A stretch of 63,502 nucleotides of DNA, filler included, from Vermamoeba vermiformis (taxonomy: Eukaryota), in the NCBI GenBank assembly GCA_045837725.1. It is 7 parts of 7 records of this genome, joined end to end, with 100 filler letters (N's around TTAATTAATTAA, not from the genome) between each part and the next. Parts side by side here need not be neighbours in the genome. Positions count along the whole stretch, not along the records: positions 27,547 to 58,368 come from JBEWZL010000097.1; 6 more parts are not named here. One strand, written 5' to 3'. Below the pieces are notes generated by a model, which saw only the letters and a list, made by a program, of their open reading frames with translations, made no database searches and was not told the DNA's origin. Below, piece by piece: positions 4,694-63,502 of the stretch. Position numbers and translations under genes: made by a program. How positions within the stretch are numbered: the first letter of the stretch is position 1; every line of letters begins with the position of its first letter.

Positions 4694-4793
4694 NNNNNNN
4701 NNNNNNNNNNNNNNNNNNNNNNNNNNNNNNNNNNNNNTTAATTAATTAANNNNNNNNNNNNNNNNNNNNNNNNNNNNNNNNNNNNNNNNNNNN
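4694..4793. other. Artificial contig linker
   Basis: 100-nt N run containing TTAATTAATTAA (stops in all six frames). Confidence 0.98.
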
Positions 4794-13175: not shown

Positions 13176-13275
13176 NNNNNNNNNNNNNNNNNNNNNNNNN
13201 NNNNNNNNNNNNNNNNNNNTTAATTAATTAANNNNNNNNNNNNNNNNNNNNNNNNNNNNNNNNNNNNNNNNNNNN
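13176..13275. other. Artificial contig linker
   Basis: N run with TTAATTAATTAA. Confidence 0.98.
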
Positions 13276-15320: not shown

Positions 15321-15364
15321 CTCTTCACTCAATTATTGCACTGATGTATTAACCTTTGAGGCAA

Positions 15365-16165
15365 TGCCTTGAAGGTAACAACCTACCTAACTTCGGACAT
15401 CGTCGCCTTGAAGGTAACGACCTCCCTGACTTTGGACGTTGTCGCCTTGAGGGTAACGAGCTCCAACGTTGTCGCCTTGAAGGTAACGACCTCCCACGTT
15501 GTCGCCTTGAAGGTAACGACCGTCCTGACGTTGGACGTTGTCGCCTTGAGGGTAATGACCTTTCTAACTTCTGACATCGTTGCCTTGAAGGTAACAACCT
15601 CTGACGTTGGACGTTGTTGCCTTGAAGGTAACAACCTCCAACGTCGTCGCCTTGAAGGTAACGACCTACCTGACTTTGGACGTTGTCGCCTTGAGGGTAA
15701 CGACCTACCCAACTTTGGACGTTGTCGCCTTGAAGGTAATGACCTCTCATGTTGTCGCCTTGAAGGTAACGACCTCCCTGACTTTGGACGTCGTCGCCTT
15801 GAAGGTAACGACCTACCTGACTTTGGACGTTGTCGCCTTGAGGGTAACGACCTACCCAACTTTGGACGTTGTCGCCTTGAAGGTAACAACCTACCCAACT
15901 TTGGACGTTGTCGCCTTGAGGGTAACAACCTCTCACGTTGTCGCCTTGAAGGTAACGACCTCCCATGTTGTCGCCTTAAAGGTAACGACCTCCCATGTTG
16001 TCGCCTTGAAGGTAACGACCTCCCTGACTTTGGACGTCGTCGCCTTGAAGGTAACGACCTACCCAACTTTGGACGTTGTCGCCTTGAGGGTAACGACCTA
16101 CCCAACTTTGGATGTTGTCGCCTTGAAGGTAACGACCTCCCACGTTGTTGCCTTGAAGGTAACGC
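15365..16165. repeat. Tandem array of ~23 copies of a 22-nt palindromic core GTCGCCTTGAAGGTAACGACCT with mostly 8- or 17-nt linkers (30/39-bp units)
   Basis: Counted by eye. Linkers are recurrent (cccacgtt/ccaacgtt; acctgactttggacgtt/acccaactttggacgtt), not unique. Confidence 0.95.
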
Positions 16166-16261
16166 CTCTGGCGTTGTCCAGAGGATATTTCATGCATTGG
16201 CTGTTCGACTTAGTATTTTTTCCATAACCCAAACATCCGTCAACCCCAAGTATATATAAAA

Positions 16262-17221: not shown

Positions 17222-18479
17222 CCTCGGTTAAAAGTAAACTTACCTGCTCGATCCGTTGACGTATTTCTAAATCTCGTTAGAATCGAACCTGTAGCGATAA
17301 ATTAAATCAGTACTATTGAAATTAATTACCAATAGACCGCGAGTAACGAGAATCTCGGTAATCTCGCGGATTTAAGAATTGATCAGCGTTCGAATCTGAC
17401 CTCGAACGCATCCAATAAATAAAATTTTGCTAATATTGTTATTATTACATACCATGAATCATGCAATAGCCATTAATTGTTCATAAATCTTCCTTGATCC
17501 GTCATTTCGAGTCGACGGATCGGCGCGACGATTTCTAGCTTTCTCTGCCACCGAGAATTTTGGCATTAATTTCGCGCGTTGTTTCTCGGCGGTCTGAATC
17601 CAAAATAATTAACAATAATTAATTGAGAGGTCTGGATCAAAATTAAAAGATCCAGGGGCCCGTTGGCTCCCTCTGATCCCCGCGCTATTTATCGCTTACC
17701 TTGTCGTATTAACAAAAAAATAATATAGCCATATTAGCTCATTGTTTGAGCTATTGTTTCGCATCAATGCAAAATTGAACACTGTTCGTTCAAGACAGTA
17801 CTGTTCAATTTCGTTCCATTTTTTGCCAGTAAATTCGGGGCGCCAAATTTTCCGGTTTTCCAGTCATTAGGCGCCCCCCAGTGCTCCCCTAACCCTAAAA
17901 GAGGCTTTTTATTTTTCGCCACGCCTGGATTCGAACCTGCGCCTTTCAAGGTTTTACAAGAGTTTGGCACTATTTCCCGATTCAGAGTCTGTCAGGAGCC
18001 CAATTGGCCTGGTATCCTGATTCGCAACGGATCGGGGTCAGGATTTTTCTTCCTGATTGGCACCCAATCGGGATGTTTTCAAATTTTGACCAATGCCATT
18101 AACTTTTTTCTGCGTTTTTCATGAAATTTACAGGCTTTTTGTTTTTACATCGTTTTTGCTGGAAAATGCAAGTTTTTAAATATTGCCCCTTTTCGACAAA
18201 AACACCTATTCCTATATCCCTAACTCCTAGGAAACAGTAATATGTCAGTATTAAATTGGCGATACTTACAGCAGTGTGAGTGCTTTGGTAAATCTTAGCT
18301 TCTCTTCCATTGTGCTTAGTTAACTTGACTGCTTTATTTGGTAACATGACTTTGCCAAGTAAGTAATTTTGTTAAACATTGCATTTATTTACTCGTAAAA
18401 TTTATTAATGCCAATGATTCAGGCATTAGTTAATTTATATTTTTCTTATTTAAAATCTTCATCATCGTCTGGGAAATTT

Positions 18480-20425: not shown

Positions 20426-20525
20426 NNNNNNNNNNNNNNNNNNNNNNNNNNNNNNNNNNNNNNNNNNNNTTAATTAATTAANNNNNNNNNNNNNNNNNNN
20501 NNNNNNNNNNNNNNNNNNNNNNNNN
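20426..20525. other. Artificial contig linker
   Basis: N run with TTAATTAATTAA. Confidence 0.98.
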
Positions 20526-24327: not shown

Positions 24328-24427
24328 NNNNNNNNNNNNNNNNNNNNNNNNNNNNNNNNNNNNNNNNNNNNTTAATTAATTAANNNNNNNNNNNNNNNNN
24401 NNNNNNNNNNNNNNNNNNNNNNNNNNN
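24328..24427. other. Artificial contig linker
   Basis: N run with TTAATTAATTAA. Confidence 0.98.
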
Positions 24428-27446: not shown

Positions 27447-27546
27447 NNNNNNNNNNNNNNNNNNNNNNNNNNNNNNNNNNNNNNNNNNNNTTAATTAATT
27501 AANNNNNNNNNNNNNNNNNNNNNNNNNNNNNNNNNNNNNNNNNNNN
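27447..27546. other. Artificial contig linker
   Basis: N run with TTAATTAATTAA. Confidence 0.98.
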
Positions 27547-32146: not shown

Positions 32147-33158
32147 AATGTTGATACCAGCGATTGTTATTCTCGGTATCCATTGTGCCTGTAAACTTTG
32201 GATCTAATAAAAGTCTATAAGCCACATATTACCGCCGGCAATACTATTCATCCGCTTGATATGTTCTTATGAATATCAGCAGCGTAGTGTAACGGATCAC
32301 CGGATCTGGCACTGCTGATTTTACGCACGGCACCCAAGCAACGAGCAATAATATCATATGATAGCATACTAGAACGTGATTGTGTTGTGTTGTGGAGTTG
32401 GACCAGTCCCGTCGAATATCTGAAAATTAAGATAAATATCCGAATTATGAATTAGGTTAACGTCCCAATTAAATACATCCACAAATGGCGTTTGTTCATA
32501 TACATTGCATAATTTAATATGCGCGATGTTCAATTGCATATTGTTCGTACCTATACTGCATATAATTAATTATGCGCGATTTTGCGTCAACGCACAATGT
32601 ACTGGATTCGATAACGAGTTTCAGTAACTGAAGTGCATTCAATGAAAAGTTGCATATATTGTATTGTTCTAATATAAGGTACGTTAATAAGTGCCAAAAA
32701 AAGCATCATAATAAGTTACGAATCGAGTTCCACGGGTAATAAAGTTACGGAATTTAAAAACATAGTTCTTAATAATTGCGATCAAAACGAAACGATCTGT
32801 CGCTTCAAACTAACTATATAGCATATAATAGAACTAATAATACGTTGCAAAATCACTTGCCGATTTCAAAAAAAATGCTTCCGTAACCAGCTCCGCGTTA
32901 CCTACCGATTGTCGCAAGATCTGCAAGGACGATATGGCGATCAAGCATCCATTATCGATATTAAATTATTTGTGGATGCTGCGCTTTGAATTCTTTGCTG
33001 CGTGGTTGAATCACAGACGGAAGGGACTGCACGGGCGTCCTGAAAATTAAGATAATAGTCAGAAATATCAGGTATAAATAACGATCGGTTGCTTCGATTA
33101 TATTCATTCAGTTCAAAACAAAAGAACAAACAACAACAAATCAATCTACTTGAAAAAA

Positions 33159-33767
33159 ATGGCCGAACCTAAAGTTACCCTCGCTCACAAGAAGAACCTT
33201 CGTGACGCTGAAGCCAACAAGCCTGCCCTTCTCGATAGAATCAAGGCTGCCACTGGTGTCGAATACACCTTCGAATTCGAGCCCAAGTTCGACGAGTTCG
33301 TCATTGCTTTGATCAAGGGCGGATCTGCCAGCCACGAACGTATTGGTGAAGCGTTCTACAACAAAGACGACGGCTATCTCGCACAAGCTGCTATGTTGTA
33401 AGTACTATAATAGAATTTTATTAGTTATGTTTCAATCGATTGATATTAAACTGAATTGTTGGGCTCGCGTACTGGAAAAAATTACCCGCGAAATTTCATT
33501 TACAAAAATATTGAAACCGTTTTGTATTGATTGCTTACTATATTTTATAGGTTGGAAAAGAACTGCAAGGACGATATGATCAAGGAGGCTATTGTTGACG
33601 CCACTCCCAACAAGAAGATCATCCTCAGCTTGGTCACATCCGGCGAAGTTCCCGACGCCAAGTGCATCGAGTTCAAGGATGGCAGCATGTACCTCTACGT
33701 CACTCCCAAGTACTTCTTCTCTTGGATGAGCACTTACTCCAAGTTCGATGTCACTAAGATCTTGTAA
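33159..33767 (+). CDS. Small unknown protein, paralog C
   Basis: MAEPKVTLAHKKNLRD...; intron 33398-33550. Confidence 0.85.
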
Positions 33768-34631
33768 AGTGCGAGCTAGATAACCAATAAAGTCCTAATA
33801 AGCAAGTTAGAATAACTTGTGCGAATTTTTTATCAAACTTACGAGTGGTGCTGTCTTTGCGTTTGACGAATCGGGCGACGTTTTTTCAAGCCCTGGCATT
33901 AATCCTAGAACTTGCTAGGAAGCGAAGTCCATACATTCGTTTCCATATCAACCATATTTAAAGTTCACTTATTTGAGAGCAACTATTGTCTCCATGTTCG
34001 ACTGAAATTACATTGCGTTAATTGAATGCTACTTAGAGTGTCAAAGTATTCAAGGCCGGTTACCGAGTTGATAAACTTCAACAATCCCCATTTGCACTGG
34101 AATCCTTGACGTTGAGTTATAGTGAATTACAGCCACAAGTTCGGCACTTTCAAGCACGAAAGATCCCGTTCGAAGTTTTTTCTGAATCCCGCATCCGTCC
34201 AAAAATCTATCTAGAGACTTGGTTGAACACGACTATCATATTGGCAATATTAATGTTATATGTTATATCTCATAGGATCTCCATTAGCGATAGTTTGTTG
34301 GTTCAATCGAAGTCAAAAGATCTGTCAGAAATAGTGCGGAGATGACTGATCCGACCTTGTGATAATATATCTGTTTAATAAAGGTCAGTATAAGCACGTT
34401 AAACATCTATTCTAAGAGGTGGCAACAGCTGTTGCAGATCCTAACTTTTTCTGATTGAATCGCATTTGAAGAGGACAATTACAAAGGCCTGTTGACCGAT
34501 TGAAATTACAAAACCTAAGATAATTGGTGGAAGAACCAGGTATAAATAGCGAATGATTTGGCTCAGTCTATTCATTCAGTTCAAAACTAAAGAACAAACA
34601 ACAACAAAACAACTTACCAAATCCAACAAAA

Positions 34632-35205
34632 ATGGCCGAAGCAAAAGTCACCCTCGCTCACAAGAAGAACTTCCGTGACGCTGAAGCAAAGAAGCCCGCT
34701 CTCCTTGCTAAGATTAAGGCTGCCTCTGGTGTCGACTACACCTTTGACCTTGAGCCCAAGTTCGACGACTTTGTCATTGGTTTGATCAAGGCTGGATCTG
34801 GCTACCACGAGCGAGTTGGTGAGGGTCTCTTCAACGACGACGGTTACCTCGCTCATATTGCCCAACTGTAAGTATCATCGTTAAATAATACTTTCTAAAG
34901 AATTTGAAACGGATTTGCTCCGTTACGAAATTGAAACTTCGTTGTTTGTTACTAAATTATATGTTAAAGTTACTTACCTTGATATATATAGGTTCGAGTC
35001 TGCCTGCAAGGATGATATGATCAAGGAGGCTATCGTTGAGGCCACTCCCAACAAGAAACTCATCCTCGCTTTGTCCAACGACGATGTTCCCTCCGACAAG
35101 TGCGTTGCATTCAAGGACGGCAACATGTACTTCTATATCACTCCTAAGAAGTTCTATTTGTGGTTGAGCAGCATTGCTAACTTCGATGTCACTAAGATCT
35201 TGTAA
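34632..35205 (+). CDS. Small unknown protein, paralog D
   Basis: MAEAKVTLAHKKNFRD...; intron 34868-34991. Confidence 0.85.
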
Positions 35206-35508
35206 ACATCGAAATTACGCGGGCTTTTTCAATATCTATCTAATATAATTCAATTATTATGCGCAGTGATATTACCGTAATTATTTGAATTATTGTACAT
35301 TTTTAAATAAATTAGGCAGATCTTCCTAATTCAAAAATCGCTTTGAATAAATACAAACCTCTTAATGGCTAAGATATAGTATTTTTTGGCAGTAATATTG
35401 TGCATTATATTCGAAGAAAAGCAGATCGCACGTGTTGTGCCTCGTGCAAGATTTTTTTGACTGAGTTTCTTTTACATTAACAGTTATCCACCAAACACCG
35501 CTATTAAT

Positions 35509-37876
35509 ATGGATAATTTAACTAAATTAAGCGTTGACGATATAGACCAATTAAAAGTAGCGCTTGGAATTACCACGTAAGCAGATTGACAAAAAAAAAG
35601 ATTTTGTTTGGAGACGAATTAATTAATTTGTGTAATTTACTCGTGCTTATTATAGTAAAGAGCCATCTCTTAATGTATCAGCAGTCGTTAAAATATTTAC
35701 CACCGCTCAAAAACCTGATTATTCGATCCCATGGCAGACATCCGATATTTTAATAGCTACAGGTCCGTATTAAATTTTCCAGCATATTATTTTATAGTTT
35801 AATCAATTTAACCCTCCTATTTTTGTAATAATTTAATTCAGGTCAAATACGCAGATCTATTTTTTTTTTTTGCGCTCGTTACCGGCAACTTTACTTTTGC
35901 AAATAAGATGTAAATATTAATTTGTTCTATATAGGCAGCGGAGCAGTTATTGGTGATAATCTTATTCTTACAGCAGCTCACGTAATAAGTTCAGCAACAT
36001 ACATCCAAGTAAGTCGAGCTCAAAACAACTATTTTAGCTTCATATATTAATATAGTCGATAAAGATTCAAAAAATAAGCGATCCTAATAAATGCAGGTAA
36101 GTTTGTGTTGTTTCTAATGCCACGATCAGATCCGAATAATTTTTCATGTTAGTGCGCGAGTAGTGAATGTGTGCCATGATAGTGATTTAGCACTATTAGA
36201 ATCGACCAATCCGAGTTTTCTGGCTGGCATTACTCCAATTGAAATAGGACCGCTGCCAAAGCTTCGAGATCGCGTTAACGTTTGTGGATTTCCTGTTGGC
36301 GGTGAAGAGGTAAAGATAACATATACCATAGTAATATTATATATATTGATAGTAATTATAGCTGAGCATTACTGAAGGAATTGTATCGCGGATCGAGGTC
36401 CAAGTTTATTCGCACTCAAGAAAAGCATTGCTTGCGGGCCAAGTAGACGCTGCAATTAATTGTAAGTTCAAAATATCATCTATATTCAATAAGTAGTATT
36501 AATATTATAATAGCTGGTAATAGTGGCGGTCCAGTTTTATCGCGCGAAGGAAAGTTAATCGGTAAGTTAATTCTGATAGCCTTATTAGGAAATTTCTAAT
36601 ATAGTTCATTATAGGAATAGCATTTCAATCGTTATCTAGCGCTGAAAATACGGTATAACAATTGCATCAAATTCTTAATTAATTTTTTGCTGATCCAACC
36701 GTCTTAGGGCTATATCGTGCCTTTTCCGATCATAAATCATTTCTTGGAAGGAAATAAGAGATTTGGACGCAATTACCAAGCATTTCCTGATTTGGGCATT
36801 AGCGTTGAGGTGATGCAGAATCCGATCTTGCGAAAACGAGTCAAAATGCAAGAACATCATAGTGGTGTCCTTGTGACGAAAGTATTTGCAAAAAATTCAG
36901 CATGGGGACATTTAAAAGAAGGTAATTTAAATTTATTAAGCTTATTTTCTTTTAAACGTTGGGCAAATCTGATCCGGATTTGTTTCATAGGCGACGTTAT
37001 CCTTGAAATTGATGGATACTCTGTCGAGAATAATGGCACCGTAAAATACTATCATGATATTAGAACAGATGCGACAGTACTCGTTATGGAACATTTCGTT
37101 GGCGACCTGATCGCAATGAAGATCCTGCGTAACGGCGAAGAACAAACAATTTCATTCCCGTTAAAACCACTCAAAGACTTAATTCCGTTGTTTAAATTTG
37201 ACGTTCATCCACGTTATTTTGTCTATTGTGGCTTAGTATTTCAACCAGTGAGTTTGGATCTGCTGCACGCCCTCTACTCAGCGGTAAGCATTCTCTATTA
37301 TATTGTTAGCATTATGTTAATCATCCTATATTTAGAACTGGTACTCTCGGGCACCGTCAGAATTGGCCTATCTGTTTGATGAGAGTGGCAAGCGCAAGTT
37401 GGAATTTATTGACGAAGTACGCGTGTCACACGTGTCACCGAGGTTAATTTTTTAAACTTTTCTTTTGACAGGTCGTAGTGCTCTCAATGGTCCTTGTAAA
37501 CGATCTTAATATCAGCTACGATGATTTTGTTGGTGGAGTTATTGAAGAAGTCAATGGCGAGGCCGTGGTCAGTTTGGCGGATCTAGCCGAAAAAGTCGAG
37601 CGGATCGTCAACAACCCCGAAAGTACGATCATCGAGTTTAAGACCAGCAAGAACTATCGCCTAGTACTTCCTACTTTGCATGTCGAAGACTGTCAAAAAG
37701 TTCATGAAGCCACGCTGACACGTTACCGAGTACCACGAGAAAAACAAATCGCGCTTGATTTACAATTACATCAAAATCATGAAATAGCTCCAAATAACAC
37801 AACGACGATCGACCTTGACGACGTTGCTCAAGTTATTCAAGAGATCATCGAAGACGAAACTATTGTAATGAATTAA
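35509..37876 (+). CDS. Deg/HtrA serine protease with PDZ-like domains (plant Deg2/9/10-like), many introns
   Basis: VVKIF..PDYSIPWQ, ILTAAHV (His), CHDSDLALL (Asp), GFPVGG, VDAAIN/GNSGGP (Ser), YFVYCGLVFQP. Confidence 0.9.
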
Positions 37877-37929
37877 CGAACTGATCCGGATCAGATCTTG
37901 CCCTCGACAAAAAAAAAGAAAACAACATA

Positions 37930-38100
37930 GGATGGCAGCGCTAGGCGTTCTAAAGACGCGTTAACCACTCCGCCACACGGCAAGTCCAGCCACAGCCCTT
38001 GCTAAGCAATCGCCATGGCTGTCATCAACCGCGACAGGATTCGAACCTGCGAAAATCCGATTTCAATTCGACGAAGAACCGCCTCGAGCATCAAGCATCC
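37930..38100 (-). ncRNA. Circularly permuted tRNA-like RNA (Ser-like, anticodon TGA)
   Basis: On the minus strand the 3' half (anticodon loop, T-arm GCAGG-TTCGAAT-CCTGT, CGCGGTTG) precedes the 5' half (TGCCGTG-TGGCGGAGTGGTTAACGCG). Leader and trailer base-pair; a T-run follows. Confidence 0.65.
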
Positions 38101-38321
38101 TGAAAGAAAATTGACAGATTTTGTTTAGGGACCGTCGCGGCTGGCGGTTAACACTGCGCAAGCATCTTTCGTTAAAAATGTTGCTAAAAGTAAAGATCTT
38201 TTTTTGAAGCGTTAATTCAGTAAAGTAGATTTTGTCTCGTACGTGTCCGGTAACGAAACAAAAAAGAATTTTGGTTGACAGCGTCGTCAATTCTGTCATA
38301 TAACAAGCAAAGCGACTAACA

Positions 38322-38697
38322 ATGGGCCGAGGAGGAAAGAAGTTTGCCGGCACTTTAACTGAAGTGCTGCAGCCGTGCAGTCGTGCGTTGATGGGCATTG
38401 CAAGTGCTTTTGTAATTACGGGCATTATTTTATTGTCAGTAGTGTACGCTAGATTTAATTCTTACCCTAATCCAGGTTAGTATCAATTTTTAAAAAGCAA
38501 AGCAAATCCGTTAACTTGCGGATGTCCAACTAAAATCAGCGTTTGCTGCAATATTCAATTTATACATATTATTTGTATTTAACATCATTTTTTGGTACAA
38601 TTTAGATGATTTCATAATTTCGGGCGGTGTTCTACTTGGTTTTGGCGGTTTGCTGTTGGTGGTTGGAATTTCCTTGTTAATTTGCTCTCGAAAGTAA
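38322..38697 (+). CDS. Small two-TM membrane protein (~80 aa)
   Basis: MGRGGKKF...FVITGIILLSVVY...; intron 38476-38605; second hydrophobic segment GGVLLGFGGLLLVVGISLLIC, then stop. Confidence 0.65.
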
Positions 38698-50869: not shown

Positions 50870-51463
50870 AACTTTCGTGCATTATTAATCTCCTTGTAAT
50901 ATAGCTTGTAATAAATACCTGTTTTCTTGCAAGATATTCGATCGCGATTTATTTCGTACACAGATACAACAACCATGTAGATATTAGATTTGAATCATAC
51001 AGAGAAAACGAAACTTCCAACTAGGAACTATCAAATTGAGCGTTTCTGGGTTGACTCAAATACACATCCGAGATGCACGAACTACCATTATTGCTTGCTA
51101 AAAATAAGGTAAAATAATGTGCATAATTTTACAACATTTTTGTCTTTTAAGTCTTTTTGCCTGCAGATCAGAATTTGATTTTTTTTAAAATGAAATCAAT
51201 TCTATTCGGTTTACTACACGTGCGCAATTTACGTAAATTACGTCGCAAAAATTTATTAACGATTTTTTAGGTAATTTCGTATTTCGCGGTTGTTGCTGCC
51301 CAAGCAGCTGCGGAATTGCGGATTTAGAGAAAAAGTCAAATTCCCTAATTCCGCTGGTACAATATTTAATGATCAAGTGGCTTATATCGCTCAAATAATC
51401 TGTTAGAGTAACGTAAGCAAACTATTTCTTTTGCTAATCGCCTGTTGACTTTAAATCTGGGAG

Positions 51464-54400
51464 ATGGCGAACGGATCTCAATTTCTGTTGCTTACGCTCA
51501 AAAATTTCAAAATCAAAGGACGTAATGGCTGTGGTACTGCTATTGAAGTAATATTTCCAGCCATTTGCTTGGCTTTCCTAATCGCTATGTTCGTCATAGC
51601 GGTACCTACTGAGCCGAACTACGATCCGATTCCAATTGGCTTTCAACCGGTCAATTTAACATACGGACCTAATGTAGATTCGGTTCGTAGTATTATGCTC
51701 GCTGTTGTGTATGGACAAGAAGATCTACTGCATCCAGTGAACACCGAAGAAGAGATGGAAGAACTGATAGTCGGTACAAAGAACAATATTACTGCAGGTA
51801 ATTAATTATTTGTTATTTCCTATTAATTTACTTTCGGAACAATTTCATTCGGCTTTGATCAAAAATTGACGTTGTGAATCTAGGAGTTTTCTTTCGGTTG
51901 ACGGAGGATGAGCTGGCCAACGATAAGCTCTCCGATAACGTTACCTATAGTATTCGAATGCAAGCCTATAGCGTGGCTAGACCATCAATTCTATTCGAAT
52001 ACGCGGCAAATACCGACTCTTCCAAAGCGTTGATGTACTACAGCTTCGTTGCAATCCAAAAGAGTGTGGATCAGGCTATTATGGCTACAAAAATCCAAGA
52101 AAAGACTGGCACAGCAAGCAACGTAAATCTTCAAGGCTTCGCTACGAGATTTCCCAAACAAGTTCCCGAAACTGAATTGGATGTGCGCTGGCAACTTCGA
52201 AACAGCATTCTGAAGCTTATTGGCGGCACGTGGTTAACATTTTGTTTGCTATTCTCCGTGTATCGCCTCGTTGGCACAATCATCGTCGAGAAAAAGACCA
52301 AAGTCGTAGATGCAATGCGCATGATGGGCATGCGAGTAAGAAACACTTTGAAATTTCCTAAAGATAGCCACTAATATATGATACTAGAATGAACTTTATT
52401 GGGTGACTTGGTTCATCGTCTCGCTAGTTCTTCTCATTCCAATTCTAGTGGCCTGCTCGGTCTTGCTAAAGTACCTCAACTTTTTCCCACTGTCATCGAT
52501 TGGCTTAATCTTCATTACTTGGTTATTATACGCCGCGTCACTTATTGCATTTGGAATGATCTTCGCTGCTTCTTTGAACTCGGCTAAGGTAAAATAAGGG
52601 AGCCGTATTTGCTGCAAGTACTCATGTTCGTGCGTATAGAGCTCTGGTCTGATTACTTTGATGGTACTCGTAGTACTTAGTATTGCAGGAGCAGCCATTT
52701 CAGCCTCAGATATGCACCCAGCGCCTAAAATTGTGCTGTCTGTCTTCAGCCCTGTTGCCTTCAACATCGCGGTCAACATTTTCGCCGAAATTGAAAACCT
52801 TAAAATGCCAGCGGACGATCACCTATCAGGTAACAATCCTTATAGGTATTATTATCACTTTCAATTATTAATATCAATTTAGAGTACTTTGGTGGTCGGC
52901 CGTCGCTTCATTCAATGATCGCCATGCTCGTAGTTGACACGGTACTTTATCTTATCCTCGCGTGGTACATTGACGGCGTCAAGACAGGTGGTTCCAAAAG
53001 TTCGTGTTTTTGCTGCAGACCTTCGTACTGGGGCAAACATAAAAACAAAGGACCTGTTATTGACGAGGAAGAACTTGCCGGTCACCAAGATAACGCTGGA
53101 GATTTCGAGAAAGTTGATCACTTCAAGCAACCTGTTGTGTCTATTCAAAAGTTGCGAAAGAAATTTATGTTCGATGATCAACCCTTTATCGCCGTTGACG
53201 GTTTTTCGTTGGACATGTACGAAGGCCAGATTCTTGCCTTATTAGGTAATTATTGATACTCGCACCTATAAGTCCTAGTACTAAATATATTGACAGGTCA
53301 CAACGGTGCTGGTAAAACTACGTTGATTTCAATGTTGACTGGAAGTTTGGATCCGACATCCGGTGAAGCTGAAATGTACGGCAATAGCCTCACGAAAGAT
53401 TTAACTGCCCTGAAGAAAATCATTGGTATTTGTCCTCAATATGACGCTATATGGCCCCAATTGACAGTCTTCGAACACTTGCAATTGTTCGGTGGTTTCA
53501 AAGGTACGAGAAAAAGTCTTAATTTCTGACACTTTTTTAAAATTATTGCCATTTTTAGGAGTAAAATTTAGCAAAGTTAAAGCTGAAGCGGAACAACTCA
53601 TTCGAGATTTCGAACTTGAAGAAAAGCGAGATTATCCTGCTGGAAAATTATCCGGCGGTCAAAAACGAAAGCTGTCAATTGCAATGGCGCTGATTGGCGG
53701 ATCAAAAGTCGTTTTTTTGGACGAACCTTCTGCGGGCATGGATCCTGAAGCTCGACGAGTAGTTTGGGACAATTTAGTCAAACACAAAGAAGGACGCGTC
53801 ATTATTATCACGAGTAAGTCTTAATTAGTCACCATTAATTCAATACGGTCCTAATATATCCTTCATTAGCTCATTTTATGGATGAAGCTGATTACCTAGG
53901 CGATCGAATTGCCATTATGCGACATGGAAAGCTATTGTGCGCTGGATCTTCGTTGTTCTTAAAGAATAGATTCGGTCTTGGTTACACCCTTAATTGCGTA
54001 AGCAACTAAAATATGAACGATTAGAGTTATATTTTAAACCATAAAAGAACACGAAATATTATTTAATCGATAGTTATTTGAAAGTTGATGTAGGCTAATG
54101 AATTTTCGATAGGTTAAGACACCTACATGCAATATTGATGAGCTTACAGAGTTCTTGAAAAAATACGAGGACGTTCAAATTCTTTCGAATGTCGGTGCCG
54201 AAGCTATTTACAGAATTCCACGCGATGGCTTCCGAAATCTCCCGCGCATGTTAAATGACATGGAGATTAGCAAAGAATCGCTTGGAGTAATTTCCTACGG
54301 AGTTGGGCAATCGACGCTTGAAGAAGTTTTCTTGGAACTAAATATGGATTCAGATCTGCAAGGAATTTCCGAAGATACGCTAAAAGAAACCGTTTTTATT

Positions 54401-57117
54401 CCAGCTTCTGATTCCTCGAACAAACGACAGCTAAACGCACTCTTGAACAAACGAAAGCAGGTTGCTAAACGAGACGTTAAGTTCTTGTTCATTCAGTTCG
54501 CAGTGCCTATCATATTGTGCGTTGCTGCCTTTGTGGTGCAAACCTTGATGTTTACGAACACCGTTGGTGGCGAAATTGCCGTGAACGGACAAGTTTACGG
54601 TACGGATCTAAAAAAATTTCTAAATTAACTAATTGAATCATTTTTAAGACGGATTCATCTCACCTTGGGCTAATTCGAATTGTACAACCAATTACTTCTC
54701 TGCTTTGCCGAACTACACGCCAGAATTGTTCCCGGAAATTTCCTTCAATGACGTCACTTCTGTGCTTAGTAACCCCGACACGTACGCATCAGGTGCTATC
54801 ATCAATTATTTCTGCATGTCTGTGGGGCCGACCCAAGTGCTTCAATATGCTCTCTATTACAACGCATCGTTGCCTCACTCTATTGGCGTCCATCAAAACC
54901 TCATCTCAAACGCTGTTCTCAACACAGCACTTGGCGGCCTTGGATCCGTAACGATCAACACTATCAACCATCCCGTTGGTAAGTTATCCTTTTGCATAAC
55001 ATATTCGATGTATTTATGGTCTATTTAGGCATTCCCATTGATCTGCTCACAAACCTCATCAGCGTTTTGATCTTCCTCTTAATTCTGATTGGTTCGTGCG
55101 TACTTTCAGCGTCAATCACCGCATTTATCTTCCAAGAACGTGAGCTTGGCATTAAGCAATTGCAATTGGCCAGCGGAACTAATGCAAAGATTTACTGGCT
55201 GTCCAACTTCATCTGGGACTTCACGCTGCACATGATCGTTTTCATTATCATAATCATCGTTGCTATTGCTACAGATTACAAGACATTCGGAGGAGAGAGA
55301 ATAGGCGCCGAGTTCATATTGATTATCTTATACAGTCTGTCATCGGTCACTGCTGCTTACTTCTTCACCTTCGTCTTTTCCGGATCCGGATCTGGTCAGG
55401 GTGCCATCTTAGGTCTCTTCCTCGGTCTTAGCTTTGGCTTCTTAACATTCTTCAACGCTGTTTCTGTTGCCGTACCAGGTGCTCAAGATGCTATGAATGC
55501 ATTGGGCTATGTTTTTAGAATTATCAGGTACGAGACAAAAAATTTTTCACGATGTGTTGACCGACCATATTTTTTAGTCCTCATTTCCTTCTGATCGCTT
55601 CATTCGGTCAATTGACAAATAGCATCGGCGCTACCACAAAAAATATCGTTACCGAAAACACGGACATTTTTGGAATGTAAGTTTTTGTTCGGAAATGTCA
55701 CGCTTGTAAGTTTCACTAATGAATTCATTGTAGTAACTATTGGGGCACATCGTTCATCATATTCGGTGGTCAATTCTTGCTTTATGGATTTTTAACGTTA
55801 TTACTGGAAAATATGCATCAATTCCGCTTGAAACAAAAACGATCTGCAAATCACCACGGCGAACATTCAGTCGATGAAGAAGACGATGACGTCATGCGAG
55901 AACGAGATCTCGTACAAAATGCGAACCCGAACGACGTTGAGAACAATCTTGTATGGGTCAGTGGTCTGCGCAAAGAATTCAACGGCAAATCCAAGATCCG
56001 CAAAGTAGCGGTCAACAATTTTTCTCTACGCATCCCTCGTGGAGAAAGTTTTGGATTATTGGGTGCTAACGGAGCAGGTAAATAATAATACAATCATATA
56101 TTAAAATATCCGGATTGACAAACATTTCCTTTTTAGGCAAAACTACTACTTTAAAAATGTTGTCAGGACAACTGTTGCCAACATTGGGTGAAGTCAGAAT
56201 CAACGGAAACACGTATGAAAATCTCGATCAGATTCTACAGTCAATTGGATGCTGTCCGCAATATGACTCTGTCATTCCTAAGTTGAGCGGAAGAGCACAT
56301 CTAGAACTTTTCGCCGAACTTAGAGGTACGCCTATTTAATTCAAATATGACTTACTTAAATATGTTATAGGTCTCCCTAAGCACAAGATTCCTGCCATTG
56401 TCGATGCGTTGATTGAAACCATCCATTTGACCAAGTACGCAGATCGACCTTGCGGAAAATACAGCGGCGGTAACAGACGAAAACTGTCATTAGCTCTTGC
56501 ATTAATAGGTAGAATATGTCGCTTAATATTGATTACATAACCTAATATGCATATTAGGCAACCCTCCTGTTCTTTACTTGGATGAACCTTCCACCGGCAT
56601 GGATCCGTTGGCGCGAAGATTTATGTGGAACTTGATTATGGCAGTGCGATCCAATAAGGCTATAATATTGACTACGCACAGTATGGAAGAATGCGAAGCC
56701 TTGTGTACTCGTTTGGGCATTATGATAGGAGTGAGTTTTAAAAAAACTGAAATTTCGTTAAACTGACCAATCATATCGCAGGGAAAATTACGTTGCGTTG
56801 GCAGTCCTCAGCACTTGAAGACTAAATTTGGAGATGGATATCGCTTGGAACTGAAGACGGATCTGCAACACGTCGATCAGATCCCCTCATTTATTCAAAA
56901 GATATCTCCGGAGGCCAAACTCGTTGATCAACATACAACGCTATTTAATTATGAAATTCCGATGCAGAACTTAACATTAGGACAATTATTCGAACAAGTC
57001 GAGAACGCAAAGGATAATTTACATATTGGCGATTACGCGGTCAGTCAAACTACACTAGAACAGATATTTATTACTATGGCACAAGAATACATTAGGCCAC
57101 GCGTAGTAGTTGACTAA
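51464..57117 (+). CDS. Full-size ABCA-subfamily transporter, many introns
   Basis: Two NBDs ([57 protein letters not shown]), two TMDs, TLEEVF and TLEQIF. Confidence 0.95.
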
Positions 57118-58368: not shown

Positions 58369-58468
58369 NNNNNNNNNNNNNNNNNNNNNNNNNNNNNNNN
58401 NNNNNNNNNNNNTTAATTAATTAANNNNNNNNNNNNNNNNNNNNNNNNNNNNNNNNNNNNNNNNNNNN
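58369..58468. other. Artificial contig linker
   Basis: N run with TTAATTAATTAA. Confidence 0.98.
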
Positions 58469-62400: not shown

Positions 62401-63502
62401 CAACTTCAATCATGAGAGTTCTTCATATGTATATAGAACAAAGTTCTAGTACTTAAGTTCTTTGCAGAACATTGCCATTTTCAGCCTCTGGCGTTTAGCC
62501 CAAAGCCTCCTGATTCCAATAGTAGTGCTTCTTGGGTCCACTGATGCTAATGGCAGAGTTTGGTATAAGTTGGTCAATTACTAACATCAGCGGACGCAGC
62601 GACCCCGGACAGACGCAATGTCCATGGACGGATGAAAAATTTTTGGCGGACATCCGCCCTACTAACTGACATTCAGAAAAATAAAAAAATGGCAGACAGC
62701 AGGAATTGAACCTGCTCTGGGACTGTATGGCTACTCAGATTTTTTCTAAGTCCAATAAATAAAAAATCCATGCAGATGCCAGGAATTGAACCCAAAGCAA
62801 CCACACCCCCATACAAACTTACCATAAAATTATGCCTACAGCAGGAATTGAACCTGCTCCTGCACCCATCCTGGCAAAATTACTAAGTCCTACCGGCCGC
62901 CCTGACCAAACCGGCCACCCTGGCCAATTCGGCCTGGCCGTCCCCCTTAAGTATGAACCAAGCAATCAGCACATACTTAATACAACACAACTACGTATTT
63001 TATGCATCACCAATTGAAAGTTCGGCTACAATTCATTGTCACCTAACAGTCCAAAAATTGTTGCATCATTCATACTTTTTATATGGAAGGAATATGCTTA
63101 ACCACATACATGGCATATAGAAATCCTATTAAAAACTTGGTACTATATAATGTATGGTCAGCGGACGTGCGGTCCATGGTGTACATCCAATTTTTGGCGG
63201 ATGGGACGTCCCATTACAATTCTTTCTCAATCTCCAGTGGCCAGAAGCAATGTGGGACGGACACCCTGTCTATGGATGGTGTTCTGTCTAATTTGGGCAG
63301 GATGACCTCAACCAAGCAGATACAATGCTATGTTACTTTCAAAGTTGAGGTTTATCAGCAAAAAAAGTTGCTAGTTCTGCCATTTTCACCTAGACTAGTT
63401 GCCAGTTCAAGCTGCTAATGGCAGAACTTGGTTTAAGTTGGTAAATTACTACTCAGTGGGCAGCCTTCACAGAAGGATGTGGTGAGCAATATTTTTTGGG
63501 TA
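59420..63502. repeat. CpG-poor non-coding mosaic of direct and inverted repeat modules (probable transposon-derived DNA)
   Basis: 30-bp perfect inverted pair 59887-59916 / 60954-60983; inverted pairs 61047-61070 / 62464-62487, 61070-61120 / 63255-63309, 61280-61327 / 63212-63242; recurrent GTCCG/CGGAC and GTTAGTAATT motifs. Confidence 0.75.

What the first reader, a model, noticed from the sequence alone, without database searches (positions are those of the whole stretch)
37930..38100. Circularly permuted tRNA-Ser-like gene: 3' half upstream of 5' half, closed by paired leader and trailer
Seen, minus strand in order: leader GGATGCTTGATGCTCGAGGCGGTTCTTCGT; 3' half CGA-ATTGAAA-TCGGA-TTTTC-GCAGG-TTCGAAT-CCTGT-CGCGGTT-G; spacer that folds into a 10-bp stem (CAGCCATGGC/GCTGTGGCTG) capped by TTGC-TTA-GCAA; 5' half TGCCGTG-TG-GCGGAGTGGTTAACGC-G-TC; trailer TTTAGAACGCCTAGCGCTGCCATCC; then a T-run. 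The acceptor stem pairs 6 of 7 (T1:T72 mismatch). Joining the halves at 28/29 gives a perfect anticodon stem TCCGA/TCGGA around TGA (38065-38063) with discriminator G73. Leader and trailer pair (GGATG/CATCC, AGGC-GTTCT/AGAAC-GCCT). Established: permuted tRNA genes are known from Cyanidioschyzon, some green algae, a chlorarachniophyte nucleomorph and Thermofilum, and mature via a circular intermediate. Inference: either a permuted tRNA in a new lineage or a new ~170-nt tRNA-mimic Pol III RNA. Caveats: no long Ser variable arm, A at position 32, and no canonical bulge-helix-bulge found at the junction.
Basis: partly seen in the sequence, partly recalled or inferred. Interest (0 to 1): 0.88.

Follow-up and report, generated by a model that had tools for sequence, protein, structure and literature searches.

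The report
Circularly permuted serine-tRNA-like gene
A small conserved gene in an unidentified microbial eukaryote encodes a transfer-RNA look-alike whose two halves are written in swapped order; it is either a very unusual way of making a tRNA or a new tRNA-mimicking RNA.

Summary
On the minus strand, 38100-37909 reads: 30-nt leader, tRNA positions 29-73, a 43-nt hairpin spacer, tRNA positions 1-28, a 25-nt trailer, a T-run. ARAGORN finds nothing in the genomic order. It calls tRNA-Ser(UGA) once the halves are swapped. Only 1 of 2000 random window 28-mers can replace the 5' half.

Independent assemblies of relatives hold the same arrangement. They show 1 change in 170 nt of the element against 25 in 352 nt of flank. 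A more diverged copy changes positions 32, 49 and 72 in ways that keep or improve the cloverleaf.

It does not meet the definition of the known permuted tRNA genes:
- The junction lies in the anticodon stem (28/29), not at 37/38.
- No bulge-helix-bulge motif gives that junction.
- The long variable arm of serine tRNAs is missing.
- Position 73 varies, and the variable loop holds TTTT.

Expression as a small RNA was not shown.

My best reading (0.45) is a selected, Pol III-type tRNA mimic with a capped acceptor end, the same topology as bacterial YrlA. A true permuted tRNA is at 0.25 and a decaying remnant at 0.15. The lineage is unresolved. I rate it a new variant of a known kind, interest 0.6.

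The parts
38071..38100 (-). Leader (30 nt). It pairs with the trailer. Conservation in a relative's contig runs to about 38109, and the diverged copy stays similar up to 38105.
   Evidence: duplex -20.2 kcal/mol. X4 record 8 has no difference before 38110; loose ends at 38105.
38026..38070 (-). 3' half of the tRNA-like body, positions 29-73. It holds 3 bp of the anticodon stem, the loop ATTGAAA with anticodon TGA (38065-38063), stem strand 39-43, the 5-nt variable loop TTTTC (38055-38051), the T arm (38050-38034), acceptor strand 66-72 and G73 (38026).
   Evidence: ARAGORN drawing; the only perfect T arm with loop TTCGAAT; 3 further hits carry TTCAATT at 62699-62857.
37983..38025 (-). Intervening spacer that caps the acceptor end. 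Four unpaired nt on each side flank a 10-bp stem (38021-38012 with 37996-37987), topped by an inner 4-bp stem with a 3-nt loop.
   Evidence: -21.7 kcal/mol; 1 of 1000 shuffles reach it.
37955..37982 (-). 5' half, positions 1-28. It holds acceptor strand 1-7, U8 G9, a Ser-type D arm with a 3-bp stem and the loop GAGTGGTTAA, then G26, U27 and C28.
37930..37954 (-). Trailer (25 nt), which pairs with the leader. UUU (37954-37952) is the single-stranded link at the three-way junction.
37909..37925 (-). T-run TTTTCTTTTTTTTT, a presumed Pol III terminator. A second copy in a water metagenome stops resembling the window exactly at 37909.
   Evidence: X4 record 3 has a loose end before 37909.

Best explanation
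The stretch 38105-37909 (minus strand) is a selected, gene-sized unit. It encodes a circularly permuted tRNA-like RNA derived from tRNA-Ser(UGA).

Proposed fold of the ~175-190-nt transcript:
- The 3' half (positions 29-73) and the downstream 5' half (positions 1-28) pair into a complete cloverleaf.
- The spacer hairpin caps the acceptor end, with 4-5 unpaired nucleotides on each side of the acceptor stem.
- Leader and trailer form a ~19-bp helix that leaves the anticodon stem between positions 28 and 29. This makes a three-way junction with a 3-nt link (UUU) and a 4-nt link (UCGU).

I think it most likely acts as a stable tRNA mimic made by RNA polymerase III. Its topology is that of bacterial YrlA RNAs. 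It may be opened at the acceptor end by RNase P and tRNase Z. I do not think it acts as an ordinary serine tRNA made through splicing-endonuclease cleavage and a circular intermediate.

Shown: the arrangement, the cloverleaf, the conservation, and the structure-preserving changes.
Inferred: transcription by Pol III, the fold, any processing, and the function.
For: 1. Architecture: ARAGORN calls tRNA-Ser(tga) only after the halves are swapped. Controls give 1 of 2000, 39 of 2000 and 0 of 2000.

2. tRNA residues, read directly: U8, A14, G15:C48, G18G19, A21, U33, A37, G53-C61 and T-loop UUCGAAU are all present. Their role as conserved tRNA positions is from my own knowledge.

3. Rfam: the best match in the genomic order is YrlA, whose consensus runs variable loop, T arm, closed acceptor stem, D arm. 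The score is 15.8 bits with E 2.5, far below the gathering score of 69, so this is a topological likeness only.

4. Independent assemblies hold the same order. X5 records 12-14 and X4 records 4-8 bridge trailer, 5' half, spacer, 3' half, leader and upstream flank.

5. Conservation in X4: 1 substitution in the 170 covered nt (37940-38109) against 25 in 352 nt of flank, one flank being coding. Fisher p = 8e-4; worst case, counting a second copy, p = 0.02. Upstream indels of 4, 1 and 6 nt rule out a coding constraint there.

6. A more diverged copy in RNA runs X21 and X23 changes A32 to C (the usual pyrimidine), G49 to A (G.U becomes A-U) and U72 to G (U1xU72 becomes U.G). All three keep or improve the permuted cloverleaf, and the last worsens pairing with the leader's own 5' end. 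In X5 a spacer-stem A-U becomes G.U.

7. The similarity between copies starts at about 38105 and ends at 37909, the end of the T-run. That is what a transcription unit would show.

8. The features that argue against a translating tRNA are listed under rival 1.
Against: - No small-RNA evidence. Only 8 and 9 reads were laid from about 13 million records each, at 85-95% identity, and they run 41-46 nt upstream of the leader.
- Whole-transcript fold z-score is only -1.15. The proposed structure is -55.8 kcal/mol against an MFE of -62.2.
- The anticodon loop keeps every feature of a decoding tRNA, which a mimic would not obviously need.
- The unpaired nucleotides flanking the acceptor stem look made for RNase P and tRNase Z, as in true permuted pre-tRNAs.
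- No Ro-binding helix, Ro60 gene or other partner was identified. The YrlA score is far below threshold.
- TTTT inside the variable loop could stop Pol III early in organisms where four Ts suffice (my own knowledge).
- One of two X5 variants carries G53 to U, which breaks the G53-C61 pair.
Confidence: 0.45

Rival explanations
1. It is a true circularly permuted tRNA gene. Leader and trailer are cut off and the ends ligated at 28/29, giving a circular intermediate. RNase P and tRNase Z then remove the spacer and CCA is added. The product is a 73-nt tRNA with anticodon UGA.
For: - The swapped halves give a near-MFE cloverleaf with a perfect 5-bp anticodon stem and a canonical loop: U33, A36-A37-A38, and C32 in the diverged copy.
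- A leader-trailer helix abuts the junction, and a T-run follows.
- The 43-nt spacer lies within the known range of 1-74 nt (Soma 2014).
- Unpaired nucleotides flank the acceptor stem.
- The sequence changes seen preserve the structure.
- A metagenome contig, L024, shows a textbook permuted tRNA-Leu(UAG) that also has a hairpin-like spacer.
Against: - The junction is at 28/29. Known types are 20/21, 37/38, 50/51 and 59/60. Eukaryotes outside C. merolae rely on 37/38 (Soma 2014).
- A brute-force search over all registers found 142 places with a 4-bp central helix. Of these, 2 were strict hBHBh' motifs, about the number chance predicts, and neither gives the Ser(UGA) junction.
- The 4-bp helix next to the junction is altered in the diverged copy at 2 of 4 pairs (37949, 37948).
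- The long variable arm is absent. By my own knowledge it is the main identity element for eukaryotic SerRS.
- U1xU72 is mismatched, and position 73 is G in one copy and U in the other.
- No joints in the reads, though there were only 17.
- Caveat: my strict-BHB script recovered only 2 of the 12 non-redundant control loci with a fully paired acceptor (L024, L002) at the true junction. Its negative result is therefore weak on its own.
Confidence: 0.25
2. It is a non-functional remnant of a rearranged or tandemly duplicated tRNA-Ser gene that is still decaying.
For: - U1xU72 is mismatched and the variable arm is lost.
- TTTT sits in the variable loop.
- One of two X5 variants carries G53 to U.
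- The window holds other tRNA-like debris that ARAGORN does not call: three T-arm-like repeats at 62699-62857 and an imperfect T arm at 17927-17937.
- Tandem duplication with loss of the outer halves is the accepted origin of permuted genes (Soma 2014).
Against: - The element is conserved well beyond its flanks, including a coding flank.
- Changes in the diverged copy keep or improve the pairs.
- The spacer hairpin and the leader-trailer helix are not expected from decay.
- Leader and trailer show no detectable likeness to the missing halves: 3388 of 5000 and 2857 of 5000 shuffles score as high.
Confidence: 0.15
3. It is a tRNA-derived SINE or another mobile Pol III element.
For: - At least one further copy has different flanks: loose ends at 38105 in X21/X23 and before 37909 in X4.
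- The unit ends in a T-run.
- TTTTCTTT occurs on both sides, at 38110-38103 and 37925-37918.
Against: - The B box lies upstream of the A box, the opposite of SINE heads (my own knowledge).
- There is one copy in 63.5 kb.
- The upstream flank in the RNA reads is a single sequence (agreement 0.79 and 1.0), which suggests low copy number.
- Pattern scans found no copy in JGI metagenomes (0 of 48 loci), in GTDB genomes (0, then 0 of 3) or in IMG/VR (0, then 0 of 5).
- There is no A-rich tail.
Confidence: 0.07
4. It is a chance resemblance or an assembly artefact that joins two ordinary tRNA-Ser genes.
For: The window is stitched from 7 contigs.
Against: - The element lies about 10 kb from the nearest linker, inside contig 27547-58368.
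- The same order is found in contigs of two other runs.
- The chance controls give 1 of 2000.
- The 3' half lacks the variable arm, so it is not an ordinary Ser gene.
Confidence: 0.02

Closest known systems
Circularly permuted tRNA genes of Cyanidioschyzon merolae, prasinophyte green algae, the Bigelowiella natans nucleomorph, Thermofilum pendens and, recently, Auxenochlorella (Soma 2014 PMC3978253, passages; EMBO J 2026 PMC13578239, passages; Auxenochlorella preprint PMC12633428, passages)
   Same: - The 3' half lies upstream of the 5' half on one strand.
- The short intervening sequence (43 nt) falls within the known 1-74 nt.
- Leader and trailer pair next to the junction, and a T-stretch lies downstream.
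- The joined halves give a canonical cloverleaf.
   Different: - The junction is in the anticodon stem at 28/29. Known junction types are 20/21, 37/38, 50/51 and 59/60.
- There is a three-way junction in place of a bulge-helix-bulge motif.
- The class-II-type (Ser) body has lost its long variable arm.
- Position 73 varies between copies.
- The organism is not shown to be an alga.
- No circular intermediate or mature tRNA has been shown.
L024 (metagenome contig, 3202 nt): permuted tRNA-Leu(UAG)
   Same: - Same order of parts, with a spacer of about 39 nt that can form a hairpin.
- Same D-loop and T-arm sequences, and a similar acceptor stem (a shared 24-mer).
   Different: - L024 has its junction at 37/38, a perfect hBHBh' (6 bp, 3 nt, 4 bp, 3 nt, 5 bp), a long variable arm and A73.
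- The shared 20-mer also occurs in 8 of 8 ordinary bacterial and phage tRNA genes fetched with it, so it shows no kinship.
Bacterial YrlA (Y RNA-like A) tRNA mimics, Rfam RF02553 (bioRxiv 10.1101/312249, passages)
   Same: - The RNA ends form a long helix on the anticodon-stem side.
- The order is then variable loop, T arm, an acceptor stem closed by a loop, and D arm.
- The tRNA tertiary residues are kept.
- That paper itself likens YrlA to circularly permuted tRNAs. It reports that M. smegmatis YrlA, with a 7-bp acceptor stem, is cut by RNase P and receives CCA.
   Different: - The score is 15.8 bits against a gathering score of 69.
- The host is a eukaryote, not a bacterium.
- A complete anticodon hairpin is kept here, whereas YrlA has none.
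- No Ro/Rsr-binding module or neighbouring rsr gene was identified.
Two-piece tmRNA from permuted ssrA genes (mentioned in Soma 2014)
   Same: A permuted gene whose product could work as two base-paired pieces, with no ligation, after the acceptor end is opened.
   Different: That system is bacterial and has a tag-coding region. Nothing here shows such processing.

Membership tests
Circularly permuted tRNA gene | The 3' half lies upstream of the 5' half on the same strand, separated by a short intervening sequence. | tested here: met
   3' half 38070-38026, 43-nt spacer, 5' half 37982-37955.
Circularly permuted tRNA gene | The joined halves give a cloverleaf with the conserved tRNA residues. 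| tested here: met
   ARAGORN calls tRNA-Ser(tga) for 3 of 3 junction variants; cloverleaf -21.1 against MFE -22.7. Blemishes: U1xU72 and A32.
Circularly permuted tRNA gene | A BHB or BHB-like motif at the junction or, in eukaryotes other than C. merolae, a junction at 37/38. | tested here: not met
   The junction is at 27/28 to 29/30. Neither of the 2 strict motifs found gives it. The script recovered the true junction in L024 and L002 only, among 12 control loci with a fully paired acceptor, so its sensitivity is low.
Circularly permuted tRNA gene | A downstream T-stretch and no terminator inside the unit. | tested here: inconclusive
   the T-run at 37925-37909 is present, but TTTT at 38055-38052 lies inside the variable loop.
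Circularly permuted tRNA gene | A circular intermediate and a mature, aminoacylated tRNA. | not testable with these tools
   no joints, but only 17 reads were laid, from runs that are not small-RNA libraries.
Cytosolic tRNA-Ser | A long variable arm (class II). | tested here: not met
   the variable loop is 5 nt (TTTTC). The D arm, T arm and anticodon loop are Ser-like (likeness recalled, not computed).
YrlA / Y RNA-like tRNA mimic (RF02553) | Reaches Rfam's gathering score. | tested here: not met
   15.8 bits against 69, E 2.5.
YrlA / Y RNA-like tRNA mimic (RF02553) | Module order: T arm, closed acceptor stem, D arm, with the RNA ends forming the stem on the anticodon side. | tested here: met
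   alignment.
YrlA / Y RNA-like tRNA mimic (RF02553) | A Ro60/Rsr-binding helix and an rsr/Ro60 gene. | not tested
   No genome is held. Only 20 ORFs of the window were scanned against Pfam, and none was TROVE.
tRNA-derived SINE | Many dispersed copies with target-site duplications, and an A box upstream of the B box. | tested here: inconclusive
   The box order is reversed. There is one copy in the window. At least one more copy exists elsewhere. Genome-wide copy number cannot be obtained.

The most novel reading that the evidence does not exclude
It is a working tRNA gene of a new kind, in a eukaryote outside the algae known to have permuted tRNAs.

The halves would be joined, or simply held together, at position 28/29 of the anticodon stem by a route that does not use a bulge-helix-bulge motif. 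The product would be a UGA-anticodon tRNA without the serine variable arm.

In the boldest form, the long leader-trailer helix that leaves the anticodon stem two base pairs below the core stands in for the missing variable arm. The molecule would then work as a branched or two-piece serine tRNA.
Probability: 0.2. Interest if true: 0.85.

Novelty: new variant of a known kind. Interest (0 to 1): 0.6.

Why it matters
By the papers I read, permuted tRNA genes are reported from one red alga, green algae (four prasinophytes and Auxenochlorella), one nucleomorph and one archaeon. All depend on the tRNA splicing machinery recognising either a BHB motif or the 37/38 position.

A conserved permuted tRNA-like gene that meets neither rule has two possible readings:
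- A second processing route exists for disrupted tRNA genes.
- Eukaryotes, like bacteria with YrlA, have turned a permuted tRNA into a stable mimic with another job.

Either reading can be tested with one Northern blot and one junction RT-PCR.

There is also a practical point. Standard tRNA finders and Rfam missed the element entirely, so similar genes are probably being overlooked in protist genomes.

Tried and rejected
1. **Tandem-duplication remnant.** I asked whether the leader is a decayed 5' half and the trailer a decayed 3' half. Global alignments score no better than shuffles: 3388 of 5000 and 2857 of 5000 shuffles score as high, and the cross-controls behave the same.

2. **Alternative reading with the anticodon-like hairpin as a long variable arm.**
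   - The BHB brute force gave 46 relaxed candidates.
   - ARAGORN accepted 3: two 'Thr(ggt)' and one 'Ser(aga)'.
   - I rejected them. The 'Thr' loop lacks U33 and a purine at 37, and its BHB and variable stem are broken by the changes in the diverged copy (38092, 38093, 38067). The 'Ser(aga)' fold has a distorted D arm.

3. **Searches for further copies.**
   - Metagenome scan for a T arm followed within 40-70 nt by the Ser-type D loop: 48 loci, none a copy of this element. They are known-type permuted Ser(CGA)/Leu genes or closely spaced ordinary tRNA genes.
   - A family-specific 26-mer: 0 hits in GTDB genomes and 0 in IMG/VR.
   - A 20-mer of T arm plus acceptor: 3 and 5 hits, all 8 ordinary bacterial or phage tRNA genes.

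4. **Placing the organism.**
   - The protease fragment's best named hits are uninformative.
   - The ABCA fragment's best 120 hits are at most 61% identical and spread over animals, brown algae, kinetoplastids, fungi and a prasinophyte.
   - Atlas: the nearest cluster for the Kelch-EGF protein is mostly Chlorophyta at score 0.85, a lead only. The F-box/LRR protein gave mixed taxa.
   - The lineage stays unresolved.

5. **Expression.** The RNA runs gave 8 and 9 reads at 85-95% identity, with no joints, no pile-up of ends and no consistent strand. They neither show nor exclude a small RNA.

6. **Rfam.** No match at the gathering thresholds in the window. There was no tRNA-family match at E <= 10 in 37700-38350.

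7. **ORF 38063-38425 (minus strand).** It overlaps the leader, has no Pfam family, and the relative's indels of 4, 1 and 6 nt inside it argue against coding.

8. The whole-genome search and the earlier-findings look-up could not be used.

Full report
**What is there.**

On the minus strand the window reads, 5' to 3':
- a 30-nt leader (38100-38071);
- tRNA positions 29-73 (38070-38026);
- a 43-nt spacer (38025-37983);
- tRNA positions 1-28 (37982-37955);
- a 25-nt trailer (37954-37930);
- seven more bases, then TTTTCTTTTTTTTT (37925-37909).

ARAGORN finds no tRNA in the 63.5-kb window. Rfam finds nothing at its gathering thresholds. When a script joins the two halves by coordinates, ARAGORN calls a 76-nt tRNA-Ser(tga) for each of the three junctions the sequence allows (27/28, 28/29, 29/30). 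It calls nothing in the genomic order.

The drawing shows:
- an acceptor stem with 6 of 7 pairs (U1xU72);
- a 3-bp D stem with the loop GAGTGGTTAA;
- a 5-bp anticodon stem around AUUGAAA;
- a 5-nt variable loop;
- a T arm with loop UUCGAAU.

By my own knowledge of tRNA, the residues that build the L-shape are all present: U8, A14, G15:C48, G18G19, A21, U33, G53-C61. The D arm, T arm and anticodon loop are those of eukaryotic tRNA-Ser(UGA). That last likeness is recalled, not computed.

**More than chance.**

- With the real 3' half, ARAGORN accepts 1 of 2000 random window 28-mers and 39 of 2000 shuffles of the 5' half.
- With the real 5' half, it accepts 0 of 2000 shuffled 3' halves.
- The joined 73-mer's cloverleaf (-21.1 kcal/mol) is close to its MFE of -22.7.
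- The spacer folds into a 10-bp stem topped by a 4-bp stem, at -21.7 kcal/mol. One of 1000 shuffles does as well.
- The leader-trailer duplex of ~19 bp is -20.2 kcal/mol. It is matched by 80 of 2000 shuffles and by 31 of 1979 random window 25-mers, so it is suggestive but not overwhelming.
- The whole transcript is not unusually stable: z = -1.15. The proposed structure is -55.8 kcal/mol against an MFE of -62.2.

**Not an artefact, and under constraint.**

The window is stitched from seven contigs by N44-TTAATTAATTAA-N44 linkers. The element lies about 10 kb inside contig 27547-58368.

Contigs of two other public runs bridge every boundary of the element in the same order. These runs are X4, a water metagenome, and X5, 'organism B'.

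In X4:
- The syntenic copy shows 1 substitution in the 170 nt covered (37940-38109). That substitution is at 37986, in the unpaired stretch before position 1.
- The flanks show 19 substitutions in 220 nt (37703-37922, mostly the end of a protease gene) and 6 listed in 132 nt (38110-241).
- Fisher p = 8e-4. It is p = 0.02 if the four unlisted differences of a second, non-syntenic contig are charged to the element.

A more diverged copy appears in the RNA runs labelled with the window's species (X21, X23). No read there is 95% identical or better, so this is another strain or a paralogue. It differs at ten listed places:
- A32 to C;
- G49 to A, which turns G.U into A-U;
- U72 to G, which turns U1xU72 into U.G and worsens any pairing with the leader's own 5' end;
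- G73 to U;
- one spacer-stem G to A;
- two leader bases;
- three adjacent trailer bases.

The three changes inside the cloverleaf keep or improve it.

Similarity between copies begins at about 38105 and, in X4 record 3, ends at 37909, the last T of the T-run. A transcription unit would show this pattern.

Against constraint, one of the two X5 variants has G53 to U, which breaks the G53-C61 pair.

**Context.**

The window is eukaryotic. It encodes Kelch-EGF, F-box/LRR and ankyrin proteins, an ABCA transporter with short introns, and a Deg/HtrA-type protease whose stop codon (37876) faces the element. GC content is about 40%.

I could not place the organism:
- ABCA hits are at most 61% identical and taxonomically scattered.
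- One Atlas cluster leans to Chlorophyta at score 0.85, which is a lead only.
- No genome is held.

**Comparison with known permuted tRNA genes.**

Soma 2014 (PMC3978253; passages read) lists 34 such genes. Their junctions are at 20/21, 37/38, 50/51 or 59/60. A BHB or BHB-like motif sits at the junction, an upstream TATA-like or AT-rich region and a downstream T-stretch are present, and intervening sequences are 1-74 nt. Green-algal and nucleomorph genes use 37/38, the position the eukaryotic endonuclease recognises.

A 2026 review (PMC13578239, passages) and an Auxenochlorella preprint (PMC12633428, passages) add no lineage outside algae and archaea. The listings of my two full-text searches for 'permuted tRNA' add none either (74 and 34 papers).

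My metagenome scan recovered many such genes as positive examples. One is L024, a permuted tRNA-Leu(UAG) with its junction at 37/38 and a perfect 6-3-4-3-5 BHB.

The window's element differs:
- Its junction lies in the anticodon stem.
- Its strands meet in a three-way junction. A UUU link and a UCGU link lie at the same end of a 4-bp helix, not staggered as in a BHB.
- A search of all registers found 142 four-bp helices and only 2 strict BHBs, about the number chance predicts. Neither gives the Ser(UGA) product.
- The 4-bp helix next to the junction is not kept in the diverged copy.

My strict-BHB script found the true junction in only 2 of the 12 non-redundant control loci with a fully paired acceptor. 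The argument from position therefore carries more weight than the missing motif.

**Further obstacles to a decoding serine tRNA.**

- The long variable arm is absent.
- Position 73 varies between copies.
- U1xU72 is mismatched.
- TTTT lies inside the variable loop.

The weight I give these rests on my own knowledge of SerRS identity rules and Pol III termination.

**What it works like.**

In the genomic order, the only Rfam model that aligns across the body is YrlA, the bacterial Y-RNA-like tRNA mimic (15.8 bits, E 2.5, gathering score 69). Its consensus runs variable loop, T arm, closed acceptor stem, D arm, with the RNA's ends forming the stem on the anticodon side.

The structural paper on YrlA (bioRxiv 10.1101/312249, passages) itself describes these RNAs as resembling circularly permuted tRNAs with closed acceptor stems. 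It reports that M. smegmatis YrlA, with a 7-bp acceptor stem, is cut by RNase P and then receives CCA.

The window's RNA has the same topology, plus a complete anticodon hairpin. It is not a member of that family: the score is far below threshold, the host is a eukaryote, and no Ro module was found.

**Verdict.**

- Selected tRNA mimic made by Pol III, possibly opened at the acceptor end: 0.45.
- True permuted tRNA matured by an unknown BHB-independent route: 0.25.
- Decaying remnant: 0.15.
- SINE-like element: 0.07.
- Artefact or chance: 0.02.

Transcription, processing and function are all inferred. The RNA reads available (17 in all, no joints, running upstream of the leader) decide nothing.

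The finding is a new variant of a known kind. It is worth a Northern blot and a junction RT-PCR.

Noticed in passing
window 4694-4793, 13176-13275, 20426-20525, 24328-24427, 27447-27546, 58369-58468: Six identical linkers (44 N, TTAATTAATTAA, 44 N). The window is therefore a chain of seven separate contigs of a draft assembly, and neighbourhood across these points means nothing.
   Followed up: yes
window 62699-62857, minus strand: Three T-arm-like hairpins about 65-80 nt apart: GCAGG-TTCAATT-CCTGC twice and TTGGG-TTCAATT-CCTGG once. Two are preceded by GGACTTAG.AA, and one is followed by a T-run. ARAGORN and Rfam call no tRNA, and no matching 5' acceptor strand was found nearby. They may be tRNA-derived repeats or further disrupted tRNA genes.
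   Followed up: partly
window 17780-18080, minus strand: A second exact GGTTCGAATCC (17937-17927) with an imperfect T stem. About 65 nt upstream lies TGAATCGGG, which resembles the main element's TGAAATCGGA. Downstream there is a telomere-like TTTTAGGGTTAGGGG. This may be a decayed relative of the main element.
   Followed up: no
L024 (about 1410-1500 of the locus, minus strand): A textbook circularly permuted tRNA-Leu(UAG) on a 3.2-kb metagenome contig: junction at 37/38, perfect hBHBh', A73, a long variable arm and a spacer of about 39 nt.
   Followed up: partly
L002, L005, L006, L007, L012, L013, L014, L017, L043 and their duplicates: A family of permuted tRNA-Ser(CGA) genes in mostly marine metagenome contigs. 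The halves are identical between loci but the intervening sequences are quite different (24-48 nt; one is an internal direct repeat). This shows how freely that spacer evolves in the known kind.
   Followed up: partly
window 15352-16256, both strands: Long open frames on both strands over a short-period tandem repeat (repeating VVALKVTT-like units). It is probably a minisatellite and not a gene.
   Followed up: no
window 33000-37876 (+) and 51400-57114 (+): A Deg/HtrA-type serine protease gene with PDZ domains ends at 37876, convergent with the element; its closest relative is 81% identical, from a JGI metagenome. There is also an ABCA-type transporter gene with many short introns.
   Followed up: partly
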